Positions 26,798 to 59,093 of a stretch of 64,000 nt of DNA are shown one piece after another. The stretch is taken from positions 42,222,001-42,286,000 of the forward strand of contig OZ024753.1 of assembly GCA_964016885.1 (NCBI GenBank), read 5' to 3'. This DNA is from Eledone cirrhosa (lineage: Eukaryota). Within the stretch, counting starts at the first letter, position 1; every line of letters starts with the position of its first letter. The notes beneath the pieces were generated by a model. It was not told where the DNA came from. It saw only the letters and a program-made list of their open reading frames with translations, and ran no database searches. Position numbers and translations under genes: made by a program.

Positions 26798-26993
26798 TTA
26801 ATATTTAAACTCTATTCCAGTATTAAGTACTTTTTCTCATGTCTGTCAATAATATATTTGTATATAAATAGTGAGGGAAAATGAAGTTTCAGTGTGTTGT
26901 TAAACCTTTTGTTATATCTGGTTGTCTTTAAAAGCAACTGCTGCTATTTTGTCGTGGCTAAATACTGACTTTAATTTCCATTTTATCTTGCAG

Positions 26994-27622
26994 CTCCGTG
27001 ATATGAAAGCTGATGGCAGTTATTTTCACTCGAGTAATTTGTCTAATCATCCCAGCTCATTAACAAGTTCTGATCGTGAACGTCTTCTTCCTAGTATTGC
27101 TCATGATAGAAGCAGGCCTTCTAAATTATTGTCTACACCTCCCCAAGGCTCACATCAGACACAGTGTGAATCTTCCCTCACAACACCTGGTGAATTTGAT
27201 GGATTTAGTGAAGCTGACACTAAGAATCTTTCTGTTCCACCTCCCACCACATCATACGATAGCAGCTGTCGAAGTGATTCTTCGGTAACGTCTCAACATA
27301 GTTCCGATCTGCTTTCCAAAGGATCCGGATTGGCTTTGAATGCATCGGAAAACAAACTCATAATGGATGCCCGCTTTACAGTGTTACCGGAGGCGAGTCG
27401 TTTGCTGACATCGCCTTCCAACGGATCGTTTACAACTACTGTTACTACTGTTCAAAATAGCATGGTTTCCTCTCAACCTCAGACTACATTCTCCAGTAAC
27501 TATGATAGTTATCTCAGTGGTAACCATGTCACCACTTCAACCACAGGACTCAATGGTATAACTTTAACAACAGTTGTAAATAGTAACCTGGAACAGAGTC
27601 AAGGCAAACGACAGCGATCAAG
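26994..27622 (+). CDS. MLLT10: AF10 large Ser/Thr-rich exon (LRDMKADG...QGKRQRS)
   Basis: cttgcag|...AG|gtaaga; 629 bp open frame within ORF 26922-27626; phase 0 to 2. Confidence 0.92.
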
Positions 27623-32297: not shown

Positions 32298-32533
32298 TTG
32301 CTTCTCTTCTGAGTTTCTTACATCAATTAAAAAGCGAAAACCAACGACTTGAAGACTGTATAAAATCATTAACAGCTCGCCGAGATCATCTACTTGCTTT
32401 AAATGCCCGCCTTGCATTACCATTAAATTCCCTCAATACAACACAGCTACTAGCAAAAGCTAGTGGCTCTCCCTCTGCTTTATTACAGCAACCTTATCAG
32501 AATCAAAGCTACACAGAATCAAACCTAGCTCAG
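32298..32533 (+). CDS. MLLT10: AF10 leucine-zipper exon (IASLLSFLHQLKSENQRLEDCIKSLTARRDHLLALNARL...), DOT1L-binding OM-LZ
   Basis: attgcag|...CAG|gtaatt; 236 bp, phase 1 to 0; heptad pattern matching AF10 LHQL..EN.RLE. Confidence 0.95.
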
Positions 32534-43639: not shown

Positions 43640-44060
43640 CTCAGAACATCCGCGAATATTGGACGTGGTCCATAAAAAAAAAATGCTTATAAACGTCAAC
43701 ACAACATTAGATATAGGCCGCAACGTAAATACGGTATATTTTTATTAATAATTTAGCGTTAAAAATCGTGAGAAAATATGTATTGCCACGAAAAAAAAAC
43801 AAAAATTGGAAGATTCCGCGAATATGCGAGGGTTTCCACGAAAATTACTAGTTCTAAGGTGAATTCCGGGGTCCACTCATTTAGATGAGTTATTTCCCTT
43901 GGCAAGACTCACCTAGTACGTTCTACCACGCAGCCAGTACCAACGTTCAACGAGTTAGCCAGTGAAAACTTACCCATTAAATATCCCATGATGCAACAGT
44001 GTAGGTAAATTTGTTGACGCTTTAGCGACATCAGTTCCCTAAAATTTTCCAGGAGGAAAT
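43640..44060. promoter_or_regulatory. CpG-enriched unique region, candidate promoter / first exon of gene 2; ZNF143/Staf-like site TCCCATGATGCA at 43984-43995
   Basis: many CpGs relative to the surroundings; + strand donor AG|gtaaat after 44004. Confidence 0.4.
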
Positions 44061-44193
44061 CTCAAGAACGATAACTCTGTCTTTACTTAATCGCAAAAAT
44101 GGGTGAAGAAATTATTTGGAAAGTTTCTCACGCACACACATATATGTGTATTAAAGGATGAAAGTTTTATTAATTATAATATATATTGTATTA

Positions 44194-44226
<33 letters not shown>

Positions 44227-44407
44227 AAAGTGACAATAAGAATTGCAGCTTTTTGTAAACTTTATTTCATATTACAATGTGTATCGATCAGCTCGGGTTG
44301 ATCATACGATCGGATCCCGACTCCTAATCGACACTTCAGATATGAGAGTTTACATGGGTGGTCCATCCAAACTGTAAGTATACACCCGGCATTCGCCGTG
44401 TGTATAC

Positions 44408-44447
<40 letters not shown>

Positions 44448-46331
44448 TTTTCCTGGACCTTTCCGACGGAATTACTTCATATATATATATATATAGTCTT
44501 ATGCTGAATCTCCCTGAGAATTACGCTTAGGATTCACATGCCTAGAATTCTCAGCCACTTACTAATTACTCCCCTCCCGGTTATGTTTATAACATTTTTA
44601 TATATTTTAAACTGAAACTTAATGTTTAAAATATGCTGAGAGAAATTTCTTCTAAAATACGATACTACGATAGTGAAACCTTTTCAGCAGTTTACGGCAG
44701 CTGTTGGGTCTCTGGTTACATTTGAAGTCTTAAAAATCGATGAATCTGAATATTCAGAGTTTGATAATATCTGACGTAAACATGAATTTTTATTAAACCA
44801 AGGTGGTCGTGTGGTTAAGAAACTCGGTTTTGTAATCAACATATTTTCAGGTTCAATACCACTGCCTGGTTAGCATGGGGCAAAATATCTTCTACTATAA
44901 TCTCGGGTTGACCATTGCCTTGTGAGTGGAATTGGGTAAACTACAGGGATTATTAAATAACTATCGTTGGTGTATCATATAAATAATATCAAAATAAATA
45001 ATGAGATGTTGTCTAAGTTAGGGATCAAGTTTAAATATTTCGAGAAATATTTTAATAAATAAATAAATGGTTCTCTTCAAATATATTGAGAACGAAATAT
45101 TGGGTTATATTTCCAACCAATTTTAGCAAACAAACAAACGTGGTAAGGCCATTTTCCCAGCTTTAGCAGAGAAAATGTCCTTGTGGGTCCCAAACAAAAT
45201 TCTTCATTTGACCCTATCGTCTGCAATCGCTGACTTTCATCATCGATTTTAATCCACAATGAATTTCCATCAGATTGCATTAAACGTTAAATATTAAGAA
45301 ATGCTGATCACGGTGTCTGGTAATGCCATGAAAGTCTTAGCTTGCTTCATACATTATTAGAGGACACATTTCTCAATTTTTCCTTATCGTCTGCATCCAA
45401 CTTCTACAACATCCGACTTTAATTTCTTCCTCGATCATCAATTTAATATATTTTATGATATTAAAACTAAGATTTGATTGCTTTAAACGCAATAATCATT
45501 AAATAAATATTTATAATTAAATAAATAACTGTTCACCGAAAACACCAGGTGTAGATAGCAGCTAGGAATGGTTGGTGTTGTGGCTGCCGGTATCAAGAAA
45601 CTAAATAACTGACTGACTACCGGACATCAATAATGGCTTTGGCCGGCAGCAATAGCCAGTGTGTGTTACATTGTATAACATTCATTGGCTTGATAATGGA
45701 TATTTTCAGTGAAAAATTTCGTATTGAATAAACAGCAGAGTTGGCTGATGTGTGGCTGCTGGTATGAAGAAGCTGAATAAATGTCTACCGGACACCATAA
45801 TGGCTTTGTCCGGTGGCAGTAGCCAGTGTACATTGGTCAATGTTGGTAGTGAAGGGGACGACAAAGACGACCTGCGGCTAATGTAATTTAATATCAGGCT
45901 ATCAATAATTATTATTATATTACAATCGACAACAAACACTGATTAAAACTAAGATCAAACGTAATAATATATTTTTTTATAATTAAAATAACAACAATAA
46001 TAGAATTATAACTAATTTAAAATATGTAATTTCTAAAACTAAGTGCGCTGTGTCCGGAGCCGGAGGTGTAGTGAGAAATAATTTGGCTTTTGTCCGGCAT
46101 TTTGACACAGAAAGATACTTCAACATTATTTGCTCGCAGTTAACAAATATTTCATCAAGGAAGCAGAATTCTTCAGGTAGAATAAATATCAAATATCTTA
46201 TTAGAATTATCATTTATAATATTAGTTTCCTAGATGTAAATATTTACTTAAATCACATTATTTATCAGTGAAAAGACAGACAGAGAGAACCAACTGTATT
46301 ATTGTCTCTGGCATAATATATACAGTATATA

Positions 46332-46541
46332 GAAGGTGACCACAAAAACACTCCGAGGTTGATATCACATTGATGTTTGCCGAGCAACAAAAGGGCCATA
46401 CATCGAATGTCTTTGATATCAACCAATACCACAAGAAACTTTGTTAGTTTATAACTGTAGCCAACAATATTGTAAAAATATTCATTTAAGTTTTTATATT
46501 ATAAGTATTTGAAATCAAGGAGTGTTTTTGTAGTCACCACT
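46332..46541. mobile_element. Tc1-type MITE
   Basis: TIR ggtgaccacaaaaacactcc / ggagtgtttttgtagtcacc. Confidence 0.65.
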
Positions 46542-48188
46542 TCAGTTTCGGTTCACCTGGTTTAATTAACTCTTGGTTATATTAATTAATTATTTAACGT
46601 ATTTTTATTATATTATTTTATAAATTTCTTCTACCATTCTTCCCCTGGAATAGATTTTCAGACGAAAAATAAACTATATTCTTTATTCTAATATTTTTGG
46701 TAATTTAAACCACATATTTCTCAACCCATTTGTCATTTTATGAGGTGAGGGACAACTATAACAAGGTGCTTTATGAATTAACTGTCATCTTAATTAATTA
46801 ATTAATTAATGTCACCCTCATAAAAACAACTCCAGGTGGATCAATAATTAATTGTATATTTCTGTTTAATATTCATTCTGTTAGAATCATAAACAATGTT
46901 GTAATGTTATTAAAAGTATTTAATTATAAATTGTCTTAATTAACTCTTTTATGGTCGTAATTCTTATAAAATTAACACTTTATTTCTAATTAACGACTAT
47001 AACTTTATAGATAAGATTAAATAGAAATAAATATAATGAATTAATTATTGCTAGGAACCTTATAAATATAATATACAGTTTAATATATAATCAAAGCGAG
47101 AGAAAATATAAAAGTAATTATAATTCAATGTCTTAATTAACTCTTTGTAGTCCTATTTCTAATGAAATACTCTCTATTTCTAATTAGCAGTAATTAATTA
47201 ATTATATGTATATACTTATATATTTATATGATAAAAAAACAAGTAAATGGACGATAACACTTGAAAAACATTTTTTTTAATAAACACTTGAAAACAATTA
47301 ATTAACTAAAACTTCAGGTGTGGACAGGTGGGGTAAAGAATTAATTATTATTTAATTACTAAGATAATGGTAATTAAACATGTTGGACGATTAATTTTTT
47401 AAAATAAATACTAAAAACTTAATTAAGACATCGTTAGGGGTGGGGATTAATAAAATTAATTAAGACTTCGTTAGGGGGTGGGGTTAATAAAATTAATTAT
47501 GTTTTAATTACTAAGATAATTACTTAACATATTGTTCTTATATAAAATTATGTTGGAAGATTTTAATTATTTCTTATAATTAAATTTTTATTGAAACCTT
47601 TTGAAAGGGGATGGGTTCGTTAAATATAAACCAGAGATAAGTGATTTCTGTTATGGTTTGGTGTTAAAAGGGTTAATTATTAAATAATGTAGCACTCAAT
47701 ACTGTTTTTTTTTTGGTGTTTCTACTCCTGACAAAAGGTAAACAATAGGAACGTGGAACAACAATAATAATAATGATTGTTTCTACTTTAGGCACAAGGT
47801 CAGCCATTTAGGGGAGGGGAAAGTCAATTAAATCGATTCCAGTGCGTTACTGGTACTTTATTTTATCGTTAGAATAAAAGACAAAGTTGATCTCTATCAA
47901 ATAATTATTATTATTTCTTTATTGGCCACAAGGGCCGATTTAAGTAATACTAATTAATAAAGTACTTATATGGCGCCATAAACTTCGGAAAACGAAAGAT
48001 ACGTTGACAGGTGCCCCACTTGTCGTTCATTTTAATCAAATCTTCAGATTTTTTTAAATGAAAACCTACTCAAATTATACGGCAGTTGGTGTATTTTTAT
48101 TTTTATCCCTCTTTGTTATATATATATATATATATATATATATGTAAAATAATTAAGTCAAATGTTTAAAATTTAGCTTCGTTTATTC

Positions 48189-48241
48189 CTGCTATATATA
48201 TTTCAGTGACAGCCATCTTTGGCTGTGACCTCTTCAGGCAG
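48189..48241 (-). ncRNA. Second hammerhead copy, exact reverse complement of 48453-48505
   Basis: lies in the left arm of the 407-bp palindrome. Confidence 0.7.
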
Positions 48242-48452
48242 TCCGAATTAGTGTGGTATAGACAAGGTGTATAATTTTGTCAATACTCTGATATGCCCAG
48301 TTCCTGGTTGGGTTGTTATTTCACTGAGGAACTGGAATCATATGAAATTCATATGATTCCAGTTCCTCAGTGAAATAACAATCCAACCAGGAACTGGGCA
48401 TATCAGAGTATTGACAAAATTATACACCTTGTCTATACCACACTAATTCGGA

Positions 48453-48505
48453 CTGCCTGAAGAGGTCACAGCCAAAGATGGCTGTCACTGAAATATATAT
48501 AGCAG
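48453..48505 (+). ncRNA. Minimal type I hammerhead ribozyme motif (Penelope-like element type)
   Basis: CTGC-CTGAAGA-GGTCACAGCCA-AAGA-TGGCTGTCACT-GAAA-TATATATA-GCAG; stem I CTGC/GCAG; 11-position stem II with one C.C mismatch; 2-bp stem III with palindromic ATAT loop; predicted AUA cleavage after 48501. Confidence 0.72.
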
Positions 48506-49251
48506 GAATAAACAAAGCTAAATTTTAAACATTTGACTTAATTATTTTACTTTATTTTACATTACTCTGGAGAAACCAAACTAACCTGCGCACTTCGTCG
48601 AGTGCTCCAACCAACATATACTCAAAATCTCTCTCTCTCTCTATCACATTAAACATGGGACTGTTAATAATGTGTTAACGGAGCGGGAATCTAAAATATA
48701 ATTATTTCTTCCCTGTTAATATTTGAAATGTTAACGTAATTTCATCAATATTTTGTTGTTGATTCTATAAGTAATTCCCACAGGAAGAATTTTGTCATAG
48801 CTATTATGACAATTTCTTACTAAATAAGAGATAAATAAATGTTTTGTTCGGATACCTAACGGCCCCTTGTTCTACGATACTAAAAAAAAAGCTATCAAAA
48901 TTTTATATAAGAACTTTTGTTATGTACCATCTTAATATTGGTTCTGGTTTAGGCTCAAGGGCAGCAATTTTGGGAAAGGGGAAAGTCGATTAAATCGATA
49001 CCAGTATGTTACTGCTACTTTATTTTATCGACAGCAATGCTTGCATGGTCTTTTGTGTGGTGTACAGTAGCTGAGATGTACCATCCAGTCAAGGCTGTAG
49101 ATTAGCACTACCACTTTACAGCGTGGACTGGGTGCTTTTTATCATTGCACTAGCACTACCACCTTACTGGGTGGACTGGGTGCTTTCACAACACACTCAC
49201 TGTTTCAATAGAATTTTCCAGTATAATTTCTTGTTATTTCAGTGTGATCTG

Positions 49252-49550
49252 ATGCCTCAACATCGAGGACAATGTGGCCATCTGTTTGCAAGCTGGGACA
49301 ACCATAAACTGTGTGCATCTTGTCGGACTTGCAGTGAAGACAATGTCTGTAACATCTGTCAACATTGGAATGGTGACTTGTGGAAGAGACACAATAATCG
49401 AAGAATCTATAAAACAAAACGTAATAAATCTTTGAGTAAAACTCTACTAGCTTCCCAGTCACCTTATGACTGGACAGCTAACAAACCATTTGCTAAATTT
49501 CCATCAAATACTCAATGTGGGATGATACCTCAGGCTGGTGAGGTTATGAA
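49252..49550 (+). CDS. Gene 2 first certain coding exon: Cys/His-rich finger MPQHRGQCGHLFASWDNHKLCASCRTCSEDNVCNICQHW, resembling the N-terminal finger of DIRS-type Gag
   Basis: acceptor atttcag ends at 49242, ATG 49252, donor AA|gtaagt after 49550; pattern C-x-H-x7-H-x2-C-x2-C-x2-C-x5-C-x2-C. Confidence 0.75.
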
Positions 49551-49624
49551 GTAAGTATCTAGAGTAATATTCACTTTTAGGGTTTAACTTGAACCCTTTT
49601 GTAACTATATTTCTATATGCTTCA

Positions 49625-49880
49625 GCAAATAGACAATATGCCCACACCCCTCCCACTGCAAAGTGGTTGTGGAGGCACCACGGCAAAAAAGCTCCCAGCA
49701 CTCACTGTAAATGAGGTTGGTGTTAGGAAGGGCATCCAGCTGTAGAAATCAAGCTAGAATCAGGTCCTGTATGAGCAAGACGAGGTGCCGACTGGACACT
49801 GCCCACAACAGGGCAACCCGTCTAACCTATGTTAGCGTGGAAGAACGGACGTAAAAGGGCAATGATGATGATCATGATGA
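49625..49880 (+). mobile_element. SINE / LINE-tail repeat ending in (GAT)n; inverted copy at 56722-56965; others near 25345-25563 and 17880-18045
   Basis: gttaggaagggcatccagctgtagaaa...cccgtctaacc...agcgtggaagaacggacg...gatgatgat. Confidence 0.75.
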
Positions 49881-50241
49881 TTTCTAATGAAAGACAACCT
49901 GCTGAAGGGAATAATATTTACTTTTAGTGTTTAACTTGAAAAACCTTTTGTAACTATATTTTGATCACGAAGCAGATTGTACTGGGTCACATGGTACCAG
50001 TAGCAGGCATAAACCTGACCTGACCAGACCAGGGTCTGGTGGGGCAGCCTGTTTAGTTGCTGACCACTCTACTATAAAATAGGTTGTACTGTATTACATG
50101 GTACCATTAGCAGACAGAAGCCTGGTCTGACCAAGAGGCATGTTATAAATACAAATATTAATTCAACTCTTGCTAAAGGGGAAAACAGACGTATGATGAT
50201 GATGATTGTTGGTTGTGTTTTTTTTTGTTTCTTTTTTTCAG

Positions 50242-50323
50242 TTTCCCAATAAGTTATTCCAACACCAATTCCCACCCTGCAGAACCAATGAATGCCATCA
50301 ACATGCCAAGATCTCATATTATG
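50242..50323 (+). CDS. Gene 2 middle exon (NFPISYSNTNSHPAEPMNAINMPRSHIM)
   Basis: strong T-rich acceptor ttttttcag|, donor ATG|gtaaat; 82 bp, phase 2 to 0, bridges both neighbouring exons in frame. Confidence 0.72.
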
Positions 50324-50858
50324 GTAAATATTTCTTTCTACTTCATTCTATTAATATATTTTCTACTAAACAGTTAACCCTTTTGATAGCAAACCACCTG
50401 AAACTACTCCTGATTCTACAACACAAAACAGTAATATTCCATCATTAGAACATTTGTTAAATTATGTTCCAAACACCAGCTTCATCCTTTAGATTCCAAA
50501 GTGTCTGGAACCACCCCTGGTTCTATGATACAAAACTGTATATTTTGAAGTATTTATATTTATCTAAAATCTTTTTATAAAATTGTGATAGAAGGTTTTT
50601 AGATAAATATAAACACTTTAACTCTTTCATTACATTATTTTTATGAAAGACACTGCCTATAGTTTTCAAATAATTTTGAAAACAATTATGAATTTGCAGG
50701 GATTTCTCATTACTAAGATGGTGTTTGGAACATAACTTAACAAAGGTTCTTATATGAAACTTATGACGGAAGGTTTTTAGTTTAAAACCTCTGTGCTTCC
50801 TGAGATTCGCCAACACTATACCTGATATGCCCCCTCCATACACATGCACACATGTATA

Positions 50859-50973
50859 TCATGACTCGTACACTATTCACTTCCCTGACATTTGTACATT
50901 ATTCTATGTACTATACATACACTTTTGATGAGTTGTAGTGCACCTGAGCACTGTACACAATTTCATTATTATT
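50859..50973 (+). mobile_element. Retroposon 3'-tail fragment with (ATT)n end; copies at 25607-25720, 53010-53120 (-), 63460-63575 (-), 63590-63672 (-)
   Basis: recurrent tcatgactc...tgatgagttgtagtgcacctgagcactgtacac...attattatt. Confidence 0.7.
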
Positions 50974-51206
50974 ATAAATATAAACAGTTTAAAATAAACT
51001 ATTTTGTTTGATAGAACCTTGGTTGGATTTAGTTTGTTTGGTATCAAAAGGATTAAGTTAAAAATTGTACAGTTTGAGAATGTAAAGAAGATGATTAATT
51101 ATTTTTAAATCATTAAAAATAGAAAATCTAAATTCTTTTTTTTTTATTGTAAAGTTTAAACATTAACTTTCAGGAATCTCTAATTGATGTATCTTTTGTC
51201 TTCTAG

Positions 51207-51788
51207 CCTTCATTAAAACTGCTGGAGACATCATTTGATCCAAATAAACAAGCCAATTCTAGTTTTATGTCTCCTGTGTGGGTTAAACAGGAGCATTGTG
51301 AAGAGACAACCAAGTTACCAGAAACACTTACACCAAATCCTTATACAGCAGATGACCATTCCATTGCTGAGGCACCACTCACTGCATGTCTTGCAGCATC
51401 AACAGTTAGCACCAACCAAATACCTTCTCCATCATCTACTGGACTCACCACAAATCAGTACTCATCAATGTATTCGGGGTGTGAGTTGTCACAAAAAGAT
51501 TTTCCCAGTCATTCTACGAATCTGTCTTGTCTTGGAAGTGGAGGAAATAACATTAAAATCCAGAATAATTACTCAGTGCCACTAGATTTGCAGCCAACAA
51601 TGGTGGAAGATGACAGATATGTGAGAATCAGTCAGAAATGTTTGAAGACATTGATGTCTTTAGTGTCATGTCCAATGTGCCAAGCTCCGGTCAACCATCA
51701 AGAGACAATTCAAGGTTTTAAGGCTGGGACACTGTTTTGTTTGAATCTTTTCTGTTACAACGGTCACAATATACAACCACGTTGGTGA
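51207..51788 (+). CDS. Gene 2 last exon: low-complexity linker with VKQE SUMO consensus, then C-terminal CxxC-x24-C-x3-H zinc ribbon
   Basis: ttctag|CCT in frame with ORF 51267-51788; TGA ends at 51788; AATAAA at 52509-52514. Confidence 0.78.
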   Translation, partial: PSLKLLETSFDPNKQANSSFMSPVWVKQEHCEETTKLPETLTPNPYTADDHSIAEAPLTACLAASTVSTNQIPSPSSTGLTTNQYSSMYSGCELSQKDFPSHSTNLSCLGSGGNNIKIQNNYSVPLDLQPTMVEDDRYVRISQKCLKTLMSLVSCPMCQAPVNHQETIQGFKAGTLFCLNLFCYNGHNIQPRW

Positions 51789-53339
51789 TGGTCTCTCACA
51801 TATTTTATTACCAATAATGAAAACATGTGGTTTAGTGGTTAAGGTGTTGGACTCACAATCATAATATTGGGGGTTCAATTTCTGAACAAGGTGGCATTTT
51901 GTGTTCTCAAGCAAGACACTTCATTCCATTCTACGTTGTTTTTTTCCTGATAGAGCTGTGTGTCCATATCATTAATACACCTGAGAAACCTCCCATAAGA
52001 TGATACTGATTCCTGGACCAGCTGGCATGTTGTGTTCTTGAGCAAGACACTTCATTTCACATCGCTTTACATGATAGGACTGGAATCCCTATCATTAAAA
52101 CACCTAAAAAACCTCCTATGAGATACAACCTTGTAGGAGGCCAGCTAAACCTACAGAGATGTGAGCTGTAACAACTACATAGGAGGCCAGGTACACATAT
52201 GTAGGGTTGAGCTGTAACATTGACATAGGTCAGCTAAACCTATATTGGTGTGAACTGTAACAAGTGTTGGAGGCCAGCTAAACCTGTATTGGTGTGAACT
52301 GTAACCACAAGAACATATAAGGCCAGGTAAACCTACATAGGTGTGAACTGTAAAATTCAATCACCAACAGCTTAATCAATTGGAGATGGTTACTTCTGAC
52401 AGAACCTGCTGGAAGGAGTGTTTGAGGACTCTACGCACCATGACATTCTCAGGAATAAGTGGGCGAAGAAGAACAGCTTTATCTGTTTTTTATTATTTGT
52501 CAACAGAAAATAAAAAAGTTACAATTTAAAATAATATTTTATATTTTGATAAATAACTGTGATAAGTGAACTATATAGATTTATTGATTTCTATCTTTTC
52601 TGGATGAAAACTTTTGTTTGTTGGAATTATTGATGACATTATCTCAGATTATATATTGTCTTCATAAAATCTTGTCTTTTTGGGCTCATTTATTTCTTCC
52701 AGTAATTAACTAAGTTATTAACAGTGGCATTAACACGCTGTGTGAAAGCATATAAAATATGTGACATGACATAGAGCATCCAGTCCACACTGTAAGGTGG
52801 TTGTGCTGGTGACATGACAAAAAGCACCCAGTCCACCCTGTAAGGTTCAGTAATGCACCTCACTAAAGTCTGTGTCCCAAGTAGTTACTTATTTGACTGT
52901 AATGGTAACACTGGCCATTGTATAAGACTGTATGTACCTTACTGAGGTCTGTATCACAGGCCAATACTACCATTAAGGCCTAGGTGAACTTAAAAGAAAA
53001 TAATAATGAACATTATTGTTTACAGTGCTCAGGTGCACTACAACTCATCAAAGGTGCATGTATAGTACATAGAATAATATACAAATATTAGGAAAGTGAA
53101 CAGTGTATGAGTTATGATATACACACAGATAATAGCAGTACCAGCCCTGTAATGCAGCTATGGTATAGCACAACCATTTATATAACACTTGAGACAACCA
53201 CTAAAGCAAACCATATTTATTTATTTTATTGTTTCTTTTTATTATATTCAACAAACTTTTCACAAAAGTTTTTTTTTTGTTTTGTTCTCTTTTAAAACAC
53301 AAAATTACAATGTAAAACAATATAAACAAAATCTTTCAT

Positions 53340-55440
53340 AACAATAATATCCAACTGTTATTACATCTTTTAGTTTTTAAATAGATTTCTGTTTCATCTG
53401 CAGTTTTCATCCTTCTACTAGAATTCATAGTAAAACCTGTAATATATTGTTGATATGGCACCAGAGCTTCTGTTTCACACATTGGAATGTTATATTTTAA
53501 TGTCATTTACATATAACATGGCCTAGTGGTTAGATTGTTGGACTCACTGTGAGTTTGTTGTTCGATTCCTTGACCAGTCAGTATGTTGTGCACTTGAGTG
53601 AAATACTATATTTCATGTTGTGACCAACAGATAGTATCAACAATGGAAAACCTAATGGAAACGTTGTTTCCTTGGTCCAATCTAACAATCAGCTTCTTTC
53701 CTTTTGTTTTTTTTTTTACATATGAATTTAGTAATGAATAGAATTTCCAGTTTTTAAACGAATTAGAATTCAAGGGATATTAATCTTCTGTAAGGTGGTA
53801 GTGCTGGTGCCAGGGAAAATGCTGCCTGTTCACTCTGTAAGGTGGTTGTGCTGGTGTCATGGGAAATGCTCGCAGGACATGCTGTAAGGTGGTTGTGCTG
53901 GTGTCATGAAAAATGCTCCCAGTACATGCTGTAAGGTGGTTGTGTTGGTGTCATGAAAAATGCTCCCAGTACATGCTGTAAGGTGGTTGTGCTGGTGTCA
54001 TGAGAAATGCTCGCAGTACATGCTGTAAGGTGGTTATCATTAGGAAGGGCATCCAATTGTAGAAAGCAAGCCAAAATGAAATGTATAAGCAAGATAAAGT
54101 CATCTGATCTGTCTGCTGCTCTCAGAACATGACAACAACCCAATTAATCTATGCCAGCATGGATTAAATAGGTGTTAAATGATGATGATGGTGATGATAA
54201 GACAGAATTCTTTATTCCACTGTGACTTCCTATTTATTAATGTTTGTCCTATTTACAGTGTGTGGCATTTAGTATTTGATTTTAAGTATAATAGCCACCA
54301 GAGTCAGAAAGATGTGGGAGAAACATTAACTCTTTAACATTTACATTACTCCATATATACTATTGTATTTTCGTGGTAAAGGCTTTACCTCACATAATAA
54401 TGAATCTATGAGATTTTGATATTATTTATTTTGAGAACATTACCTTAACATCAGTATGAGTGGCTGATTACAGCTGTTTTTGAACAGAAAGAGGTGAGAG
54501 AATTCTGGCCAGATATGTCCGGTTCAAAGGCTAAAGGGTTAACATAATTATGAGCAGCTGGTTATAGCCAGTTTGAACAGAAAGGGGTGAGAGAATTCTG
54601 GCTGGATATGTCCGGTTTAAAGGGACTGCTACATCTTTTGATAATAAAGGGGGCTTTCTTTCCACATGACAAGCAGACTGTATAAAGAAGTAGATGCCAT
54701 AAAGTCTGGTGTTAAATGGCAGTGAAACATTGACATGGATTTTCCAAAGTGAAATGCCATACTTTGCATTTGTTTTAGCTGTTGTTTTTCTTGTAATTTC
54801 TAAAGCTTTTAACTATTTTCTGCAGCATCTTCTACACACTAGCTTGAGACGACTCTTCAGTTGTGTCGAGAGCATGATGCCCCCCCCCCCCCCCCCCACT
54901 ATTGCTGATGTCACAATAAAACACATCAAGTACACTGTCAAATGTAGGAATGTTTATAAGTGAGATGTGGCTCTTTAGCCCATCTGTGAGGAAAGTGGTT
55001 CCAGTTTAAGTGCTGACTTGGTCTGTGATGACCCATCCAACCTCTCACAGTGTAGAAAAGCAGACATTAAATAATTTTCTCTGTTTAAACTCTCACAGTT
55101 CATAGCTTTTCTATTTGAACTCTCATATTTCATATGTTCTCTGAACTCAAATCTGTATCTTCTTGTTTGGACTCTCATATTCCATATATTCCTTCTGCCA
55201 GTAACAGAGCATTTAATGGTATGTCTTCATGTAATTCACACTCATATTTGGAGAATATCTTCTGTTGCCTGCTTTATTATTCAAGTTTTCAAATTGCTTT
55301 CTTAGTTTGCTTCAGTAGATCATACTTAAAATTATCTCTAACAATTGCAGGTATGCTGTCATTCATCATTCTTTCTTATACATACAAATACTTCCACACA
55401 GAACTGGACTGGGTCTTAAAACTGTCTTGGGCATCTGGGT
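53340..55440 (-). pseudogene. Possible decayed coding sequence broken by repeats
   Basis: protein-like frames with scattered stops at about 55440-55130 and 54870-54625, and an open 50-codon stretch at about 53490-53337 (IPMCETEALVPYQQYITGFTMNSSRRMK...). Confidence 0.25.
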
Positions 55441-55759
55441 GACAAACTAACAGACTGATGACTGGTGAGGGGTCAGAGGTGTCTTTTCACTGCCCAGCAG
55501 AGGTGACACTGAATAACAGAATGTTGACCTCTGAGGACCAGAAGTTTGTTTTCACTGCTCACCTAAGGTGACACTAATTAACAGATTACTGAGGGCCCAA
55601 AGCTAATCTATGCATGCTGTGGTTGTGAAAGTAGGGGACCCAGTGCATTGTTTTGTATGAGGTGTGGGCCATTGGGTCTAGGGATCCAATGCTAATTTAT
55701 GCATGCTGTGTTTATATGTGTAGGGGCTCCAGTGCAATGTGTGCTATGGTATTTCGTAC

Positions 55760-56070
55760 CCTAAGTTAGCTCTACAATGTGTACCTATGCATTGAGCACC
55801 CTAGGCTTGGTCTACAATGTGTACCTGGGTATTTAGCACCCCTAGGCTTACTCTACAATGTATGGCTGGGTATTTAGCTCCCTAGGCTTGCTCTAGAATG
55901 TGTACCTGGGTATTGAGCACCCCTAGGCTTGCTCTACAATGTGTACCTGGGTATTGAGCACCCCTAGGCTTGCTCTACAATGTGTGGCTGGGTATTTAGC
56001 ACCCCTAGGCTTGCTCTAAAATGTGTACCTGGGTATTTAGCACCCTTAGGCTTGCTCTAAAATGTGTACC
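55760..56070. repeat. 40-41-bp tandem repeat, about 7 copies
   Basis: cccctaggcttgctctacaatgtgtacctgggtattgagca. Confidence 0.9.
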
Positions 56071-58685
56071 CCGTTCTCCCAAATAAAATAAAATAAATAC
56101 AACTTATATTTCGCTAAGCTGACAAACCTACTTTCTAATACTTCTTGCTTTCATTGGCTCAGTCTACCAAGATGTAAATGGCTATCATCAATAGGTGCAT
56201 TACATTATGAAAAACAGTCTACACTACATAAATACAATCTTCAGATAACAACCTTAGAATTCAGTAGTCCATCAAACTCACTTTTCATATTATTTTAATC
56301 ATTTAAACAACTCTCCCCCCAAAACTGCTTTTATTAACCCTTTAACCTTTACATTACTCCATATTTACTATTGTATTATAATGGAAAACATTTTATCTTA
56401 CATAATATCGAATCCTCGAGATTTAGATATTATTTATTTTGAGAACAATACCTTAACATCAGTATGAGCAGCCGATTACGGCTGGTTTAAACAGAAAGAG
56501 GTGAGATAATTCTGGCCAGATATGGCCCGTTTAAATGCTAAAAGGTTAAACTGTTGAAATTTAATTCCAAATCTTGGACTGAACTCTCATTGTTACATGG
56601 CAGATAATATTAGATTTCAGTACTTAAATATTTGTCTTTTATTGTTTAACCTTTTTGATACCAAACCTTTTGAACTCACCCCTGGTTCTTTGATACAAGA
56701 CTGTTTATTTTAATGTATTTATCATCATCATCACCGTTTTACGTCCATTCTTCCACGCTAGCATGGGTTAGACGGGTTGTCCTGTTGTGGGCAGTGTCTG
56801 GTCGGCTGACCATGCCTTGCTCATACAGGAACTGATTTGGCTTGATTTCTACAGCTGGATGCCCTTCCTAACACCAACCTCATTTACAGTGAGTACTGGG
56901 TGCTTTTTTGCCATGGCACCTCCACGACCACCTTGCAGTGGGGGGTGTGGGGGCATATTGTCTATATGCTTCAGCTTGTACCCATGGGAGGTCGGGTACT
57001 CTGTATTACTGCATGACGCCAGAGGTCACGGTCGTCTATATTTATCTAAAAACTTTCCATCATAGTATTATATACAAACTTTTGTTGAGTTATGTTCCAA
57101 GCACCAATTTAATGATGAGAAAGTTTGTTACATCACTAAAGTCCTCAAAATATTTTAATTATTCTCAAAATTAATTGAAAACTAAGGGTAATGTCTTTCA
57201 TTAGAAATATGGTAACGAAATGGTTAAATACTGACCCACCTGAATCCCCTCCATTAAATATTCAAATCTTGGATTGGAATCACATTATTCCATGACTGAT
57301 AATATTGTCTATCAAGTAATAATTGTTTCTACTATTGGCACAAGGCCAGCAATTACCCCAGTGTATTACTAGTACTATACTTTATCGACCTCATAAAGAT
57401 GAAAGGCAAAGTTAACTTCGGCGGGATTTGATCTCAGAACACAAAGGGCCATAACTCTATGCTGCAAAGCATGGCGTCTGACGCTCTACTGATACTGCCA
57501 CCCCCCACACACATATCTATCATGTAACAATGTAGTTAAACATTTGTTGAATAATGGTTGAAAGTTATTTCACAGAATATCTCATAATTCTCAATTAATT
57601 TCACAATTAAAACACAAAAGGCAGAATATTTTTGTTAGAAGTATGGTCTTGAAAGTGTTAACCTGGGATAGATGAAAGGAAAAAGTGGATCTAGGCAGAG
57701 TTTAAACCCAGAACTACAGTAAAACATATTTGTCTATTTATATCAGCCACCATCCTTGTTCTATCCTTTATAATTAACTTTAATTAGTATTAACCTTCAT
57801 AATTAGTCCCCATGTAAAACAAAAATACCAATAAACCGCTCATCAAATAAATATTAAAAACAAAGAAATATTAAAACTATAATTCTGTAAATTTGCAGAC
57901 CAATATTTAACTCTTACCATCCTATACTACATGAAACCATACTAGCAAGACATTCTTAGATATACAAACAGCATTATGATTGCACCACTTTAAGAATTAA
58001 ATTTTTTGCTCTAATACTGCAAATTTTTACAACGATATGTCCAGTAGTAAAGATACCATAAACATTTTGAATTAATAAATATGTTTTTAGGTATTTTCTG
58101 CTAAATCTTTACAGGATGTTAAGATTTAATTAACGACCACACATATGCAACATAACTTTTAGCAGAATTGAATGCATCACATTTAAAACTACTCTAACGC
58201 TGCAAATTTTCACAACAATCTGTCCATTAGTAAAGACCCTATAAACATTTATATGAAGAAACCTGTATTTAGATATTTTTCTGCTAGATCATTACAAGAT
58301 GTTAAGAGTTAAAGCAACATTAAAACAGTAATTTCAAGTTATTTCATCACATATTTATAATATTTTTGGCTTTTATTTTTTTGTTGTTTTTTTACAAATT
58401 TATCTTTCATTTAACCAATATTTTAAAACCAGACATACACGGGGGGAACAGTTAATTACACAGTTAAAAACAGCTCATTCCATTATAACCCCCAACTACA
58501 AGACAAGCCTATACACAATTTGTTAGTCAAACTAGTTTCTAGAATTTTTGGCACAAATGAGGACATTCAACATTTAGTTAGTTGTGGTGAAAATGTCTGA
58601 AGGGATAATAATTTGATTGTTAAATCAATAATAAATAATACCAGTTCAAAGAGAGATAATAATAAAGTAGTGGTTACTGGATATT

Positions 58686-59093
58686 CTAAAAAGATTTGAC
58701 ATCTTTTTTCGGTTCCATCCTTGGCCTTCTGCGCAAACATGAAATAAACAAACTACCGATGTATTCTCTAGCATTTGCTCTCCGGGAAGTAGTTATTTTT
58801 TGTCGTTTTCCGTCAATCATTGATGTTGTTGGCATCAATGGTTGATTACTTATTGTTATAGTTCTTAAGTAGTCAGGAGTAAGCTCGTTTAATTTATCCC
58901 AGAATTGTAAAAATCCCTCGTCGTCTTGTAATTGAAATCTGTTTAAGGCGACAGAAACTGTCTGTGAGTTGTGCATATTTGCCATTCTGTGGCTCAGCAG
59001 GGATCTATGGAGACCAATTAAAGCTCTTTGGCAAGACTCAATAATTATCTGAATGTCCAGAAAAGCATGCATTGTGTTCACTGATATCTCACT
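58686..59093 (-). CDS. Gene 3 terminal exon (SEISVNTMHAFLDIQ...CLRRRPRMEPKKDVKSF*); unknown protein
   Basis: minus strand ttttcag| phase 0; 408 bp open to TAG; candidate AATAAA on - strand at 58372-58377. Confidence 0.75.
   Translation of the reverse strand, partial: SEISVNTMHAFLDIQIIIESCQRALIGLHRSLLSHRMANMHNSQTVSVALNRFQLQDDEGFLQFWDKLNELTPDYLRTITISNQPLMPTTSMIDGKRQKITTSRRANAREYIGSLFISCLRRRPRMEPKKDVKSF

What the first reader, a model, noticed from the sequence alone, without database searches (positions are those of the whole stretch)
49252..51788. Candidate chimeric gene built from two transposon-type zinc domains
Seen: three exons with canonical splice sites and matching phases give an intact 320-aa ORF with a downstream AATAAA. 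It has an N-terminal 8-ligand Cys/His finger, a S/T/P-rich linker with a VKQE SUMO consensus, and a C-terminal ISQKCLKTLMSLVSCPMC...GTLFCLNLFCYNGH ribbon. Recalled: MP..RG.CGH..A.WDNH..C..C..C.....C..C..W fits the N-terminal finger of molluscan DIRS retrotransposon Gag. The C-terminal motif resembles the 'CL..LF..CP.C...GT.......C..GH...W' region of Mutator-like transposase-associated proteins. No RT, tyrosine recombinase or DDE ORF is nearby. Inference: a lineage-specific nuclear protein assembled by exon shuffling from class I and class II elements, possibly a transcription regulator or TE repressor.
Basis: partly seen in the sequence, partly recalled or inferred. Interest (0 to 1): 0.8.

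Follow-up and report, generated by a model that had tools for sequence, protein, structure and literature searches.

The report
Retrotransposon finger on swappable cephalopod module
A spliced, conserved cephalopod gene joins a cysteine-rich finger taken from a DIRS retrotransposon to a terminal exon that sister genes attach to THAP or BEN-like domains instead, so it is likely a transposon-built gene regulator whose borrowed finger is predicted to bind DNA.

Summary
The gene is real. Three exons give an intact 320-aa ORF, and spliced contigs show both joints, one just under the tool's bridging threshold. A 346-aa relative keeps both domains at 87-91% identity but the linkers at about 40%.

The N-terminal finger is homologous to the start of DIRS ORF1. 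It scores 76.9 bits against at most 35.7 for 5,000 motif-fixed shuffles. A DIRS finger used as query hits only this exon in the 3-Gb genome (E 5e-11).

The C-terminal ribbon resembles the pre-catalytic ribbon of one broken THAP-bearing DDE-type transposon (20.3 bits against at most 16.0). The label 'Mutator' is not confirmed.

The ribbon is therefore a shared coleoid host module with exchangeable N-termini, and the finger occupies the DNA-binding slot.

Best reading: a SUMO-linked transcription regulator (about 0.5; function untested). A TE-repressor role is weak, because no matching DIRS was found in the genome. This is a new variant of transposon domestication.

The parts
49252..49550 (+). 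First coding exon (ATG; preceded by a splice acceptor at 49241-49242)
   Evidence: 3' part (49432-49550) and donor seen in an X4 contig
49252..49404 (+). DIRS ORF1-derived Cys/His finger with W39, W44, R50, R51 (residues 1-51)
   Evidence: alignment; shuffle test; reciprocal genome search; BLASTP 28/54 identical
49384..49437 (+). Basic stretch (8 K/R, no acidic residue in 18), predicted helix, candidate nucleic-acid contact and NLS
   Evidence: charge; helix 41-62 in a low-confidence model of P0001; role inferred
50242..50323 (+). Second coding exon (linker); weakly matched by Octopus THAP proteins just upstream of their exon-3 match
   Evidence: 46% over 24 aa, E 0.16-0.65
51207..51788 (+). 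Terminal coding exon after a phase-0 intron, shared with THAP-ribbon and BEN-like-ribbon genes
51282..51293 (+). VKQE SUMO consensus; IKQE in Octopus THAP proteins, IKEE/VKEE in BEN-like proteins
   Evidence: SUMOylation untested
51621..51785 (+). C-terminal ribbon CL..L...V.CP.C...V...ETIQGFK.G.L..L.LFC.NGH (residues 266-320)
   Evidence: 50/55 identical to P0001; 27 invariant columns in 13 rows; similarity to transposon L094
51789..52054 (+). 3' UTR, at least this long
   Evidence: X4 contig 51604-52054
43501..49000 (.). CpG-retaining upstream region, candidate promoter and first exon; CpG o/e falls to 0.06-0.36 over the gene
   Evidence: reading as promoter and gene-body methylation is inference (PMC9476566, abstract)

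Best explanation
This is a spliced, single-copy cephalopod gene whose first coding exon comes from the N-terminal finger of a DIRS retrotransposon ORF1 and whose last exon is shared with THAP and BEN-like genes, and it likely works as a nuclear transcription regulator in which the finger and its basic helix are predicted to bind DNA. Shown: splicing, conservation, DIRS homology, and the shared terminal exon. Inferred: (1) a coleoid ancestor kept the zinc ribbon of a THAP-bearing DDE transposase, cut off where the catalytic core begins; (2) copies of that exon were joined through a phase-0 intron to different N-terminal domains (BEN-like, DIRS finger, THAP); (3) the finger therefore fills the same DNA-targeting slot as THAP and BEN; (4) the linker's psi-K-x-E site is SUMOylated, and the ribbon serves as a dimerisation or cofactor surface, most likely for repression.
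For: Both joints seen in X4 contigs. Finger 34/39 and ribbon 50/55 identical to P0001, against 16/40 and 36/89 in the linkers. Against the own-genome paralogue over 45 ribbon codons, pN is 0.21 and pS 0.77, i.e. saturated. 9 of 12 metagenome motif hits carry the full finger spacing; 3 of the 12 show a downstream RT. Shuffle test 76.9 bits against at most 35.7; reciprocal E 5e-11. The ribbon occurs on THAP proteins (Pfam E 1e-15 to 1e-19) that match exon 3 from its first codon (E 8e-51), and on a second family whose N-terminus resembles genome BEN candidates (E 1.7e-6 to L057). A psi-K-x-E site lies 11-26 residues into the terminal exon in the finger, Octopus-THAP and BEN-like proteins. THAP and BEN are established DNA-binding domains (own knowledge; THAP also PMC1702500, passages).
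Against: No call tests DNA binding, zinc binding, localisation or SUMOylation. The structure models are poor (pLDDT 56 and 42). No function is known for the DIRS ORF1 finger, and PMC4495291 (parts 1-2 of 3) says ORF1 has no clear homology to retroviral Gag; it could bind RNA or protein instead. The BEN label has no Pfam hit, and L057 itself is under the BEN cut-off (19.2 against 23.2 bits). The transposon link of the ribbon rests on one element found with a recalled motif. The order finger/THAP is unresolved in both trees. Argonauta P0012 shares only the last ~75 residues and lacks the KQE segment.
Confidence: 0.5

Rival explanations
1. Adaptor or chromatin cofactor: the finger is a protein-interaction module, as the DIRS-derived LAP2alpha domain is, and the protein is recruited to THAP or BEN-like partners through the shared ribbon and modulates them without binding DNA.
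For: The known DIRS ORF1 co-option, LAP2alpha, acts through protein partners lamin A and Rb (PMC4495291). The ribbon is shared among family members and is the most conserved part. A BEN-like-ribbon paralogue exists in the same genome.
Against: The basic helix after the finger is conserved from DIRS (R51 invariant, R50 nearly so), which suits nucleic-acid contact. LAP2alpha is a different part of ORF1: no Pfam family matches any of 10 finger rows.
Confidence: 0.22
2. RNA-binding regulator: the finger keeps a nucleocapsid-like role from the retrotransposon and binds host transcripts.
For: ORF1 is the gag-position ORF (10.1101/2021.08.05.455354, passages; PMC4495291). Cys/His fingers with basic tails bind RNA in retroviral Gag (own knowledge).
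Against: The spacing is not the CX2CX4HX4C knuckle (sequence). The other two N-termini on this exon are DNA-binding types.
Confidence: 0.14
3. Restriction factor against DIRS elements: a truncated ORF1 that poisons or marks the element's particles or DNA.
For: The finger is 52% identical to an extant DIRS ORF1. Truncated Gag restriction factors are known (own knowledge).
Against: No target was found in this genome. The DIRS finger query hits only the gene (8 of 8 candidates scored). The finger pattern gives 3 hits against 3 in the control. The 150 best-scored of 1,897 RT candidates are 26-32% identical, and the three inspected are Gypsy-like, against 47% and 71% between DIRS. These searches score only part of the candidates.
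Confidence: 0.1
4. Non-functional relic or chance ORF.
For: Low depth in X4 (2-6). No finger-ribbon protein from the annotated Octopus or Argonauta proteomes among the hits.
Against: Intact, spliced, and conserved domain by domain with the same stop position in a distant relative.
Confidence: 0.04

Closest known systems
LAP2alpha domain of TMPO and ZNF451, from DIRS1-like ORF1 (PMC4495291; parts 1-2 of 3 read)
   Same: A piece of DIRS ORF1 captured as an exon and fused to other domains, under purifying selection.
   Different: Different part of ORF1 (N-terminal Cys/His finger; no Pfam match). It is the first coding exon, not an alternative last exon. It is in cephalopods, and the partner exon is itself probably transposon-derived.
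Transposon-derived transcription factors: THAP, ZBED, CENPB, HTH-Psq, FHY3, FLYWCH (PMC10027918, passages; includes Octopus THAPs)
   Same: Transposon domains reused in lineage-specific nuclear regulators. The sister genes here are THAP proteins with an HCF-1-type DHSY motif (motif name recalled).
   Different: All of those come from DNA transposons; that paper has 0 mentions of DIRS. Here a retrotransposon ORF1 finger sits in the DNA-binding slot.
Host-transposase fusions such as SETMAR (cited in PMC4495291) and modular families such as MADF-BESS, ZAD- or KRAB-zinc fingers (recalled)
   Same: Exon shuffling joins a targeting domain to a reusable effector domain.
   Different: The reusable C-terminal part is an unclassified coleoid ribbon (5 clusters in 1.84 billion representatives, all of this family) that appears to be a transposase fragment rather than a host effector.
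THAP-bearing DDE-type transposon represented by L094 (Mutator-like by recall and an Atlas lead only)
   Same: Ribbon pattern C..TL...C..C.A.V...E...G..L.L.L.C.NGH.I, with THAP upstream as in the Octopus and Argonauta sister genes.
   Different: The gene stops where the transposase core would begin. No DDE region and no terminal repeats lie near it.

Membership tests
DIRS retrotransposon (element) | ORF1 followed by RT/RNase H and tyrosine recombinase ORFs | tested here: not met
   No such ORF among ORFs of 70 aa or more in 44000-58000 or 100 aa or more in the window
DIRS retrotransposon (element) | Multiple copies, terminal repeats | tested here: not met
   Single copy; self-BLAST of 45000-56000 shows only short interspersed and tandem repeats, no long terminal repeat pair around the gene
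DIRS ORF1-derived domain | Homology to ORF1 of elements that carry RT downstream | tested here: met
   RT in L024, L025, L026
DIRS ORF1-derived domain | Donor elements carry a tyrosine recombinase (order DIRS rather than LTR) | tested here: inconclusive
   L025 has an overlapping third ORF with recalled YR motifs; Pfam gives only Phage_int_SAM_4 at E 0.061
LAP2alpha domain (PF11560) | Pfam match | tested here: not met
Mutator-like transposase (PF20700) | Pfam match of the ribbon or of its donor element | tested here: not met
   No hit for the ribbon proteins or for L094, which is broken and frameshifted; Atlas lead only
DNA-transposase-derived ribbon | Homology to the ribbon upstream of a DDE-like core | tested here: inconclusive
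   One element: 20.3 bits against at most 16.0 in 5,000 shuffles and at most 7.4 for the other 10 pattern hits; hhalign probability 81%; not found at E 0.001 or better among 1.84 billion representatives
DNA-transposase-derived ribbon | Catalytic DDE core | tested here: not met
   Stop codon directly after the ribbon in the window and in P0001; spliced contigs continue as UTR
THAP protein | THAP domain PF05485 | tested here: not met
   Absent from the protein and from the window by tblastn; present in sister proteins P0012 and P0013
BEN protein (own-genome paralogue) | BEN domain PF10523 | tested here: inconclusive
   No Pfam hit; 32% over 69 aa to the sub-threshold candidate L057, E 0.07 to over-threshold L056
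Domesticated host gene | Spliced, single copy, conserved orthologue, constraint | tested here: met
   orthologue dN/dS could not be computed (no DNA for P0001)
Sequence-specific transcription factor | DNA binding, nuclear localisation, effect on transcription | not testable with these tools
   Needs bench work

The most novel reading that the evidence does not exclude
The N-terminal finger of DIRS ORF1 is an unrecognised sequence-specific DNA-binding domain. Coleoid cephalopods built a private transcription-factor family by plugging three such domains (DIRS finger, THAP, BEN-like) onto one transposase-derived ribbon exon. Octopod lineages then kept either the finger or the THAP version: this genome has the finger and only a decayed THAP exon, while Octopus and Argonauta yielded only the THAP version.
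Probability: 0.3. Interest if true: 0.82.

Novelty: new variant of a known kind. Interest (0 to 1): 0.68.

Why it matters
Co-option of DIRS ORF1 is documented for the mammalian LAP2alpha domain (PMC4495291). My searches found no report for the N-terminal finger or for cephalopods (open-access library only, mostly listings). The gene gives a soluble, single-copy handle on what the DIRS ORF1 finger does, which I found described nowhere. It also defines a small coleoid family in which one effector exon is reused with three different N-termini, a natural domain-swap experiment relevant to how cephalopods gained lineage-specific regulators.

Tried and rejected
No RNA holder was listed for exon 3; this is no evidence either way.

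Searches that found little or nothing:
- Word-index search with the finger found only P0001, 1 candidate. Full-length P0001 found only itself, among the 7,993 candidates scored.
- The 1.84-billion-protein search used a profile that began at P0001 residue 103, so it did not test the finger.
- The Atlas gave no usable hit for the finger.
- Pfam and PDB sequence searches gave only chance-level hits for finger, ribbon and BEN-like domain.
- AlphaFold models were low-confidence; the fold search gave no match at Z 2 or more, which is uninformative.
- Complex prediction for a ribbon dimer was not available, so dimerisation is untested.

Mutator-type searches:
- PF20700 found nothing in the own genome, nor in its controls.
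- A recalled transposase motif gave 6 own-genome hits, none with a ribbon.
- Viral-contig pattern scans gave 0, 3, 0 and 11 loci, none relevant.
- 10 of 11 GTDB pattern hits were chance.
- The L094 ribbon ORF found only a tandem repeat in the own genome.

Other points:
- Of the 12 finger-pattern loci, L033 (different spacing), L034 (phage-like, chance) and L035 (contig end) were left out of the alignment.
- No finger exon lies in the 80 kb around the BEN-like paralogue.
- No ribbon lies within 20 kb upstream or 60 kb downstream of the decayed THAP exon on C3.
- Rejected: that the ORF continues into a transposase through a further exon (same stop in P0001, and X4 contigs read through it); that the locus is an autonomous element; that THAP is an alternative first exon here.
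- No supplementary files were read.

Full report
Observation. Contigs of run X4 skip both introns. The exon 2/3 joint has 81 letters on its short side; the exon 1/2 joint has 30, one below the tool's bridging rule. Runs X1-X3 cross the exon-3 acceptor unbroken. X4 is not labelled RNA, all four runs are one study, and the finger-coding bases were not covered. Independent support comes from P0001, a 346-aa protein on 46 short Logan contigs that holds all three exon products in one chain and ends in the same QPRW. Its cluster mates P0002, P0003 and P0005 begin with intron-like sequence at the same exon-3 boundary. The first AATAAA is 721 nt past the stop. The neighbour upstream is AF10.

Constraint. 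Against P0001 the finger is 34/39 identical and the ribbon 50/55, while the linkers are 16/40 and 36/89. The host is an octopod by similarity: its BEN-like last exon is 84% identical to O. bimaculoides, 71% to Argonauta and 60% to a cluster holding a Sepia protein. Exon 3 is 62% identical to P0001, which suggests, by inference only, a squid or cuttlefish source and a gene older than that split. CpG o/e is mostly 0.7-1.3 at 43.5-49 kb (one 500-base window at 0.41) and 0.06-0.36 over the gene. That fits gene-body methylation of a broadly expressed gene (PMC9476566, abstract).

The finger comes from DIRS ORF1. A motif scan of metagenome contigs gave 12 loci. Nine share further spacing that the motif did not impose (C27, C33, W39, W44, R51), and all nine sit near the start of a long or contig-cut ORF. 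Three show a downstream RT. L025 also has weak RNase H hits and an overlapping ORF with recalled tyrosine-recombinase motifs, weak in Pfam. A profile of the nine elements alone scores the window finger 76.9 bits; 0 of 5,000 shuffles that keep the eight motif residues exceed 35.7 (the alignment was made with the window row present but is nearly gapless). The L026 finger searched against the 3-Gb genome hits only this exon, E 5e-11, and is 28/54 identical to it. Similarity ends after the basic stretch. C36 is Ser in 5 of 9 elements, so the ligand count is open. No donor family was found in the genome, within the limit that only part of the candidates is scored.

The terminal exon is a shared module. 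The ribbon has one other copy in the genome, 29 Mb away on the same contig. Its upstream exons encode a different, 97%-conserved domain that resembles BEN candidates but has no Pfam hit. A search with the two ribbons returned 10 proteins of 63 candidates: six of the BEN-like type, P0001, two THAP proteins from Argonauta and O. sinensis (Pfam-confirmed), and a fragment like the latter. The Octopus THAP proteins match exon 3 from its first codon (E 8e-51) and weakly match exon 2. The Argonauta one matches only the last 75 residues. The last intron is phase 0 in the finger and BEN-like genes. A psi-K-x-E site lies early in the terminal exon of the finger, Octopus-THAP and BEN-like proteins. Trees separate BEN-like from finger+THAP ribbons at 100/100 but leave finger versus THAP open. 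A profile of exons 2-3 found 5 clusters among 1.84 billion representatives, all of this family.

Distribution. No finger-ribbon protein from the annotated Octopus or Argonauta proteomes appeared. No THAP-ribbon gene was found in this genome, only a THAP exon with stops, 42% identical to P0013 and with no ribbon nearby. In Octopus the THAP and BEN-like genes lie on contigs of different length, whereas here the finger and BEN-like genes share one. This suggests duplication with reciprocal retention rather than an in-place swap, but absence from word-indexed searches is weak evidence.

Origin of the ribbon. Pfam never gave Mutator. The Atlas listed a cluster with PF20700 on 10% of its members at 0.90, with 157 shared features, which is a lead only. 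A recalled motif found 11 GTDB loci. One, L094, is a broken element, probably host DNA in a bin, with THAP (E 4e-15), then a ribbon, then a frameshifted region with DDE-like motifs that I recognise from memory and Pfam does not name. The family profile scores its ribbon 20.3 bits, against at most 16.0 in 5,000 shuffles and 7.4 for the other ten loci; hhalign gives probability 81%. The window protein ends where that element's core would begin. This is moderate, single-element support for a DNA-transposase origin, with the superfamily unfixed. It also leaves open that THAP-ribbon is the ancestral form and that the finger replaced THAP.

Mechanism. Shown: a spliced, constrained gene with a DIRS-derived first exon and a shared last exon. 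Inferred: because the other two N-termini are DNA-binding types, the finger with its basic helix (8 K/R in 18 residues) probably targets DNA, while the SUMO site and the ribbon provide the effector side (0.5). Rivals: adaptor (0.22), RNA binder (0.14), anti-DIRS factor (0.10), relic (0.04). Structure models were too poor to help, and dimerisation is untested.

Comparison and novelty. It works like a transposon-derived modular regulator. It is not a DIRS element, a THAP protein, a LAP2alpha protein or a demonstrated Mutator derivative. The closest precedent is LAP2alpha/ZNF451 from DIRS ORF1 (PMC4495291, parts 1-2 of 3 read), which uses another part of the ORF. PMC10027918 (passages) lists cephalopod transposon-derived factors without DIRS. 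Ten literature searches were run; the eight aimed at this question showed no report of this gene or family in their listings. Subscription journals and supplements were not seen. Verdict: real, a new variant of transposon domestication, interest 0.68.

Noticed in passing
window 58689-59093, minus strand: Last coding exon of a convergent gene; an X4 contig leaves the genome at 59093 as if spliced, and X4 covers much of 54006-59093. No Pfam hit.
   Followed up: partly
window about 790-890, 12400-12450, 26990-27620 and 32318-32464: Exons of AF10/MLLT10 upstream on the same strand; the OM-LZ exon was confirmed against PDB, the others are recognised from recall.
   Followed up: partly
window 45571-45662 and 45740-45829: 81%-identical direct repeat inside the CpG-retaining upstream region; candidate promoter element.
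   Followed up: no
G000:C13:13439252-13447956, minus strand (L003, L005, L006): Four-exon BEN-like-ribbon gene, 97% conserved in its N-terminal domain and annotated only as uncharacterised in Octopus.
   Followed up: partly
L019 (G000:C3:245016997-245017305): THAP exon with stops, 42% identical to O. sinensis P0013; possible decayed remnant of the THAP-ribbon gene.
   Followed up: partly
P0015 (O. vulgaris): Its THAP-ribbon protein changes frame before the last C..GH ligands; assembly error or decay.
   Followed up: no
L094:1436-3480: Broken THAP-bearing transposon of animal type on a contig of a Dehalococcoidia bin in GTDB, probably host contamination.
   Followed up: partly
G000:C3:346967459-347036961: 14 RT matches spaced about 5.3 kb apart, i.e. 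a tandem array of probably Gypsy-like units, most with about 1,061-aa open frames.
   Followed up: no
L033:68-118: A related ORF1 finger with different cysteine spacing after the shared CGH..WD.H core.
   Followed up: no
L056, L057, L058: Further BEN candidates in the own genome, one over the Pfam cut-off.
   Followed up: partly
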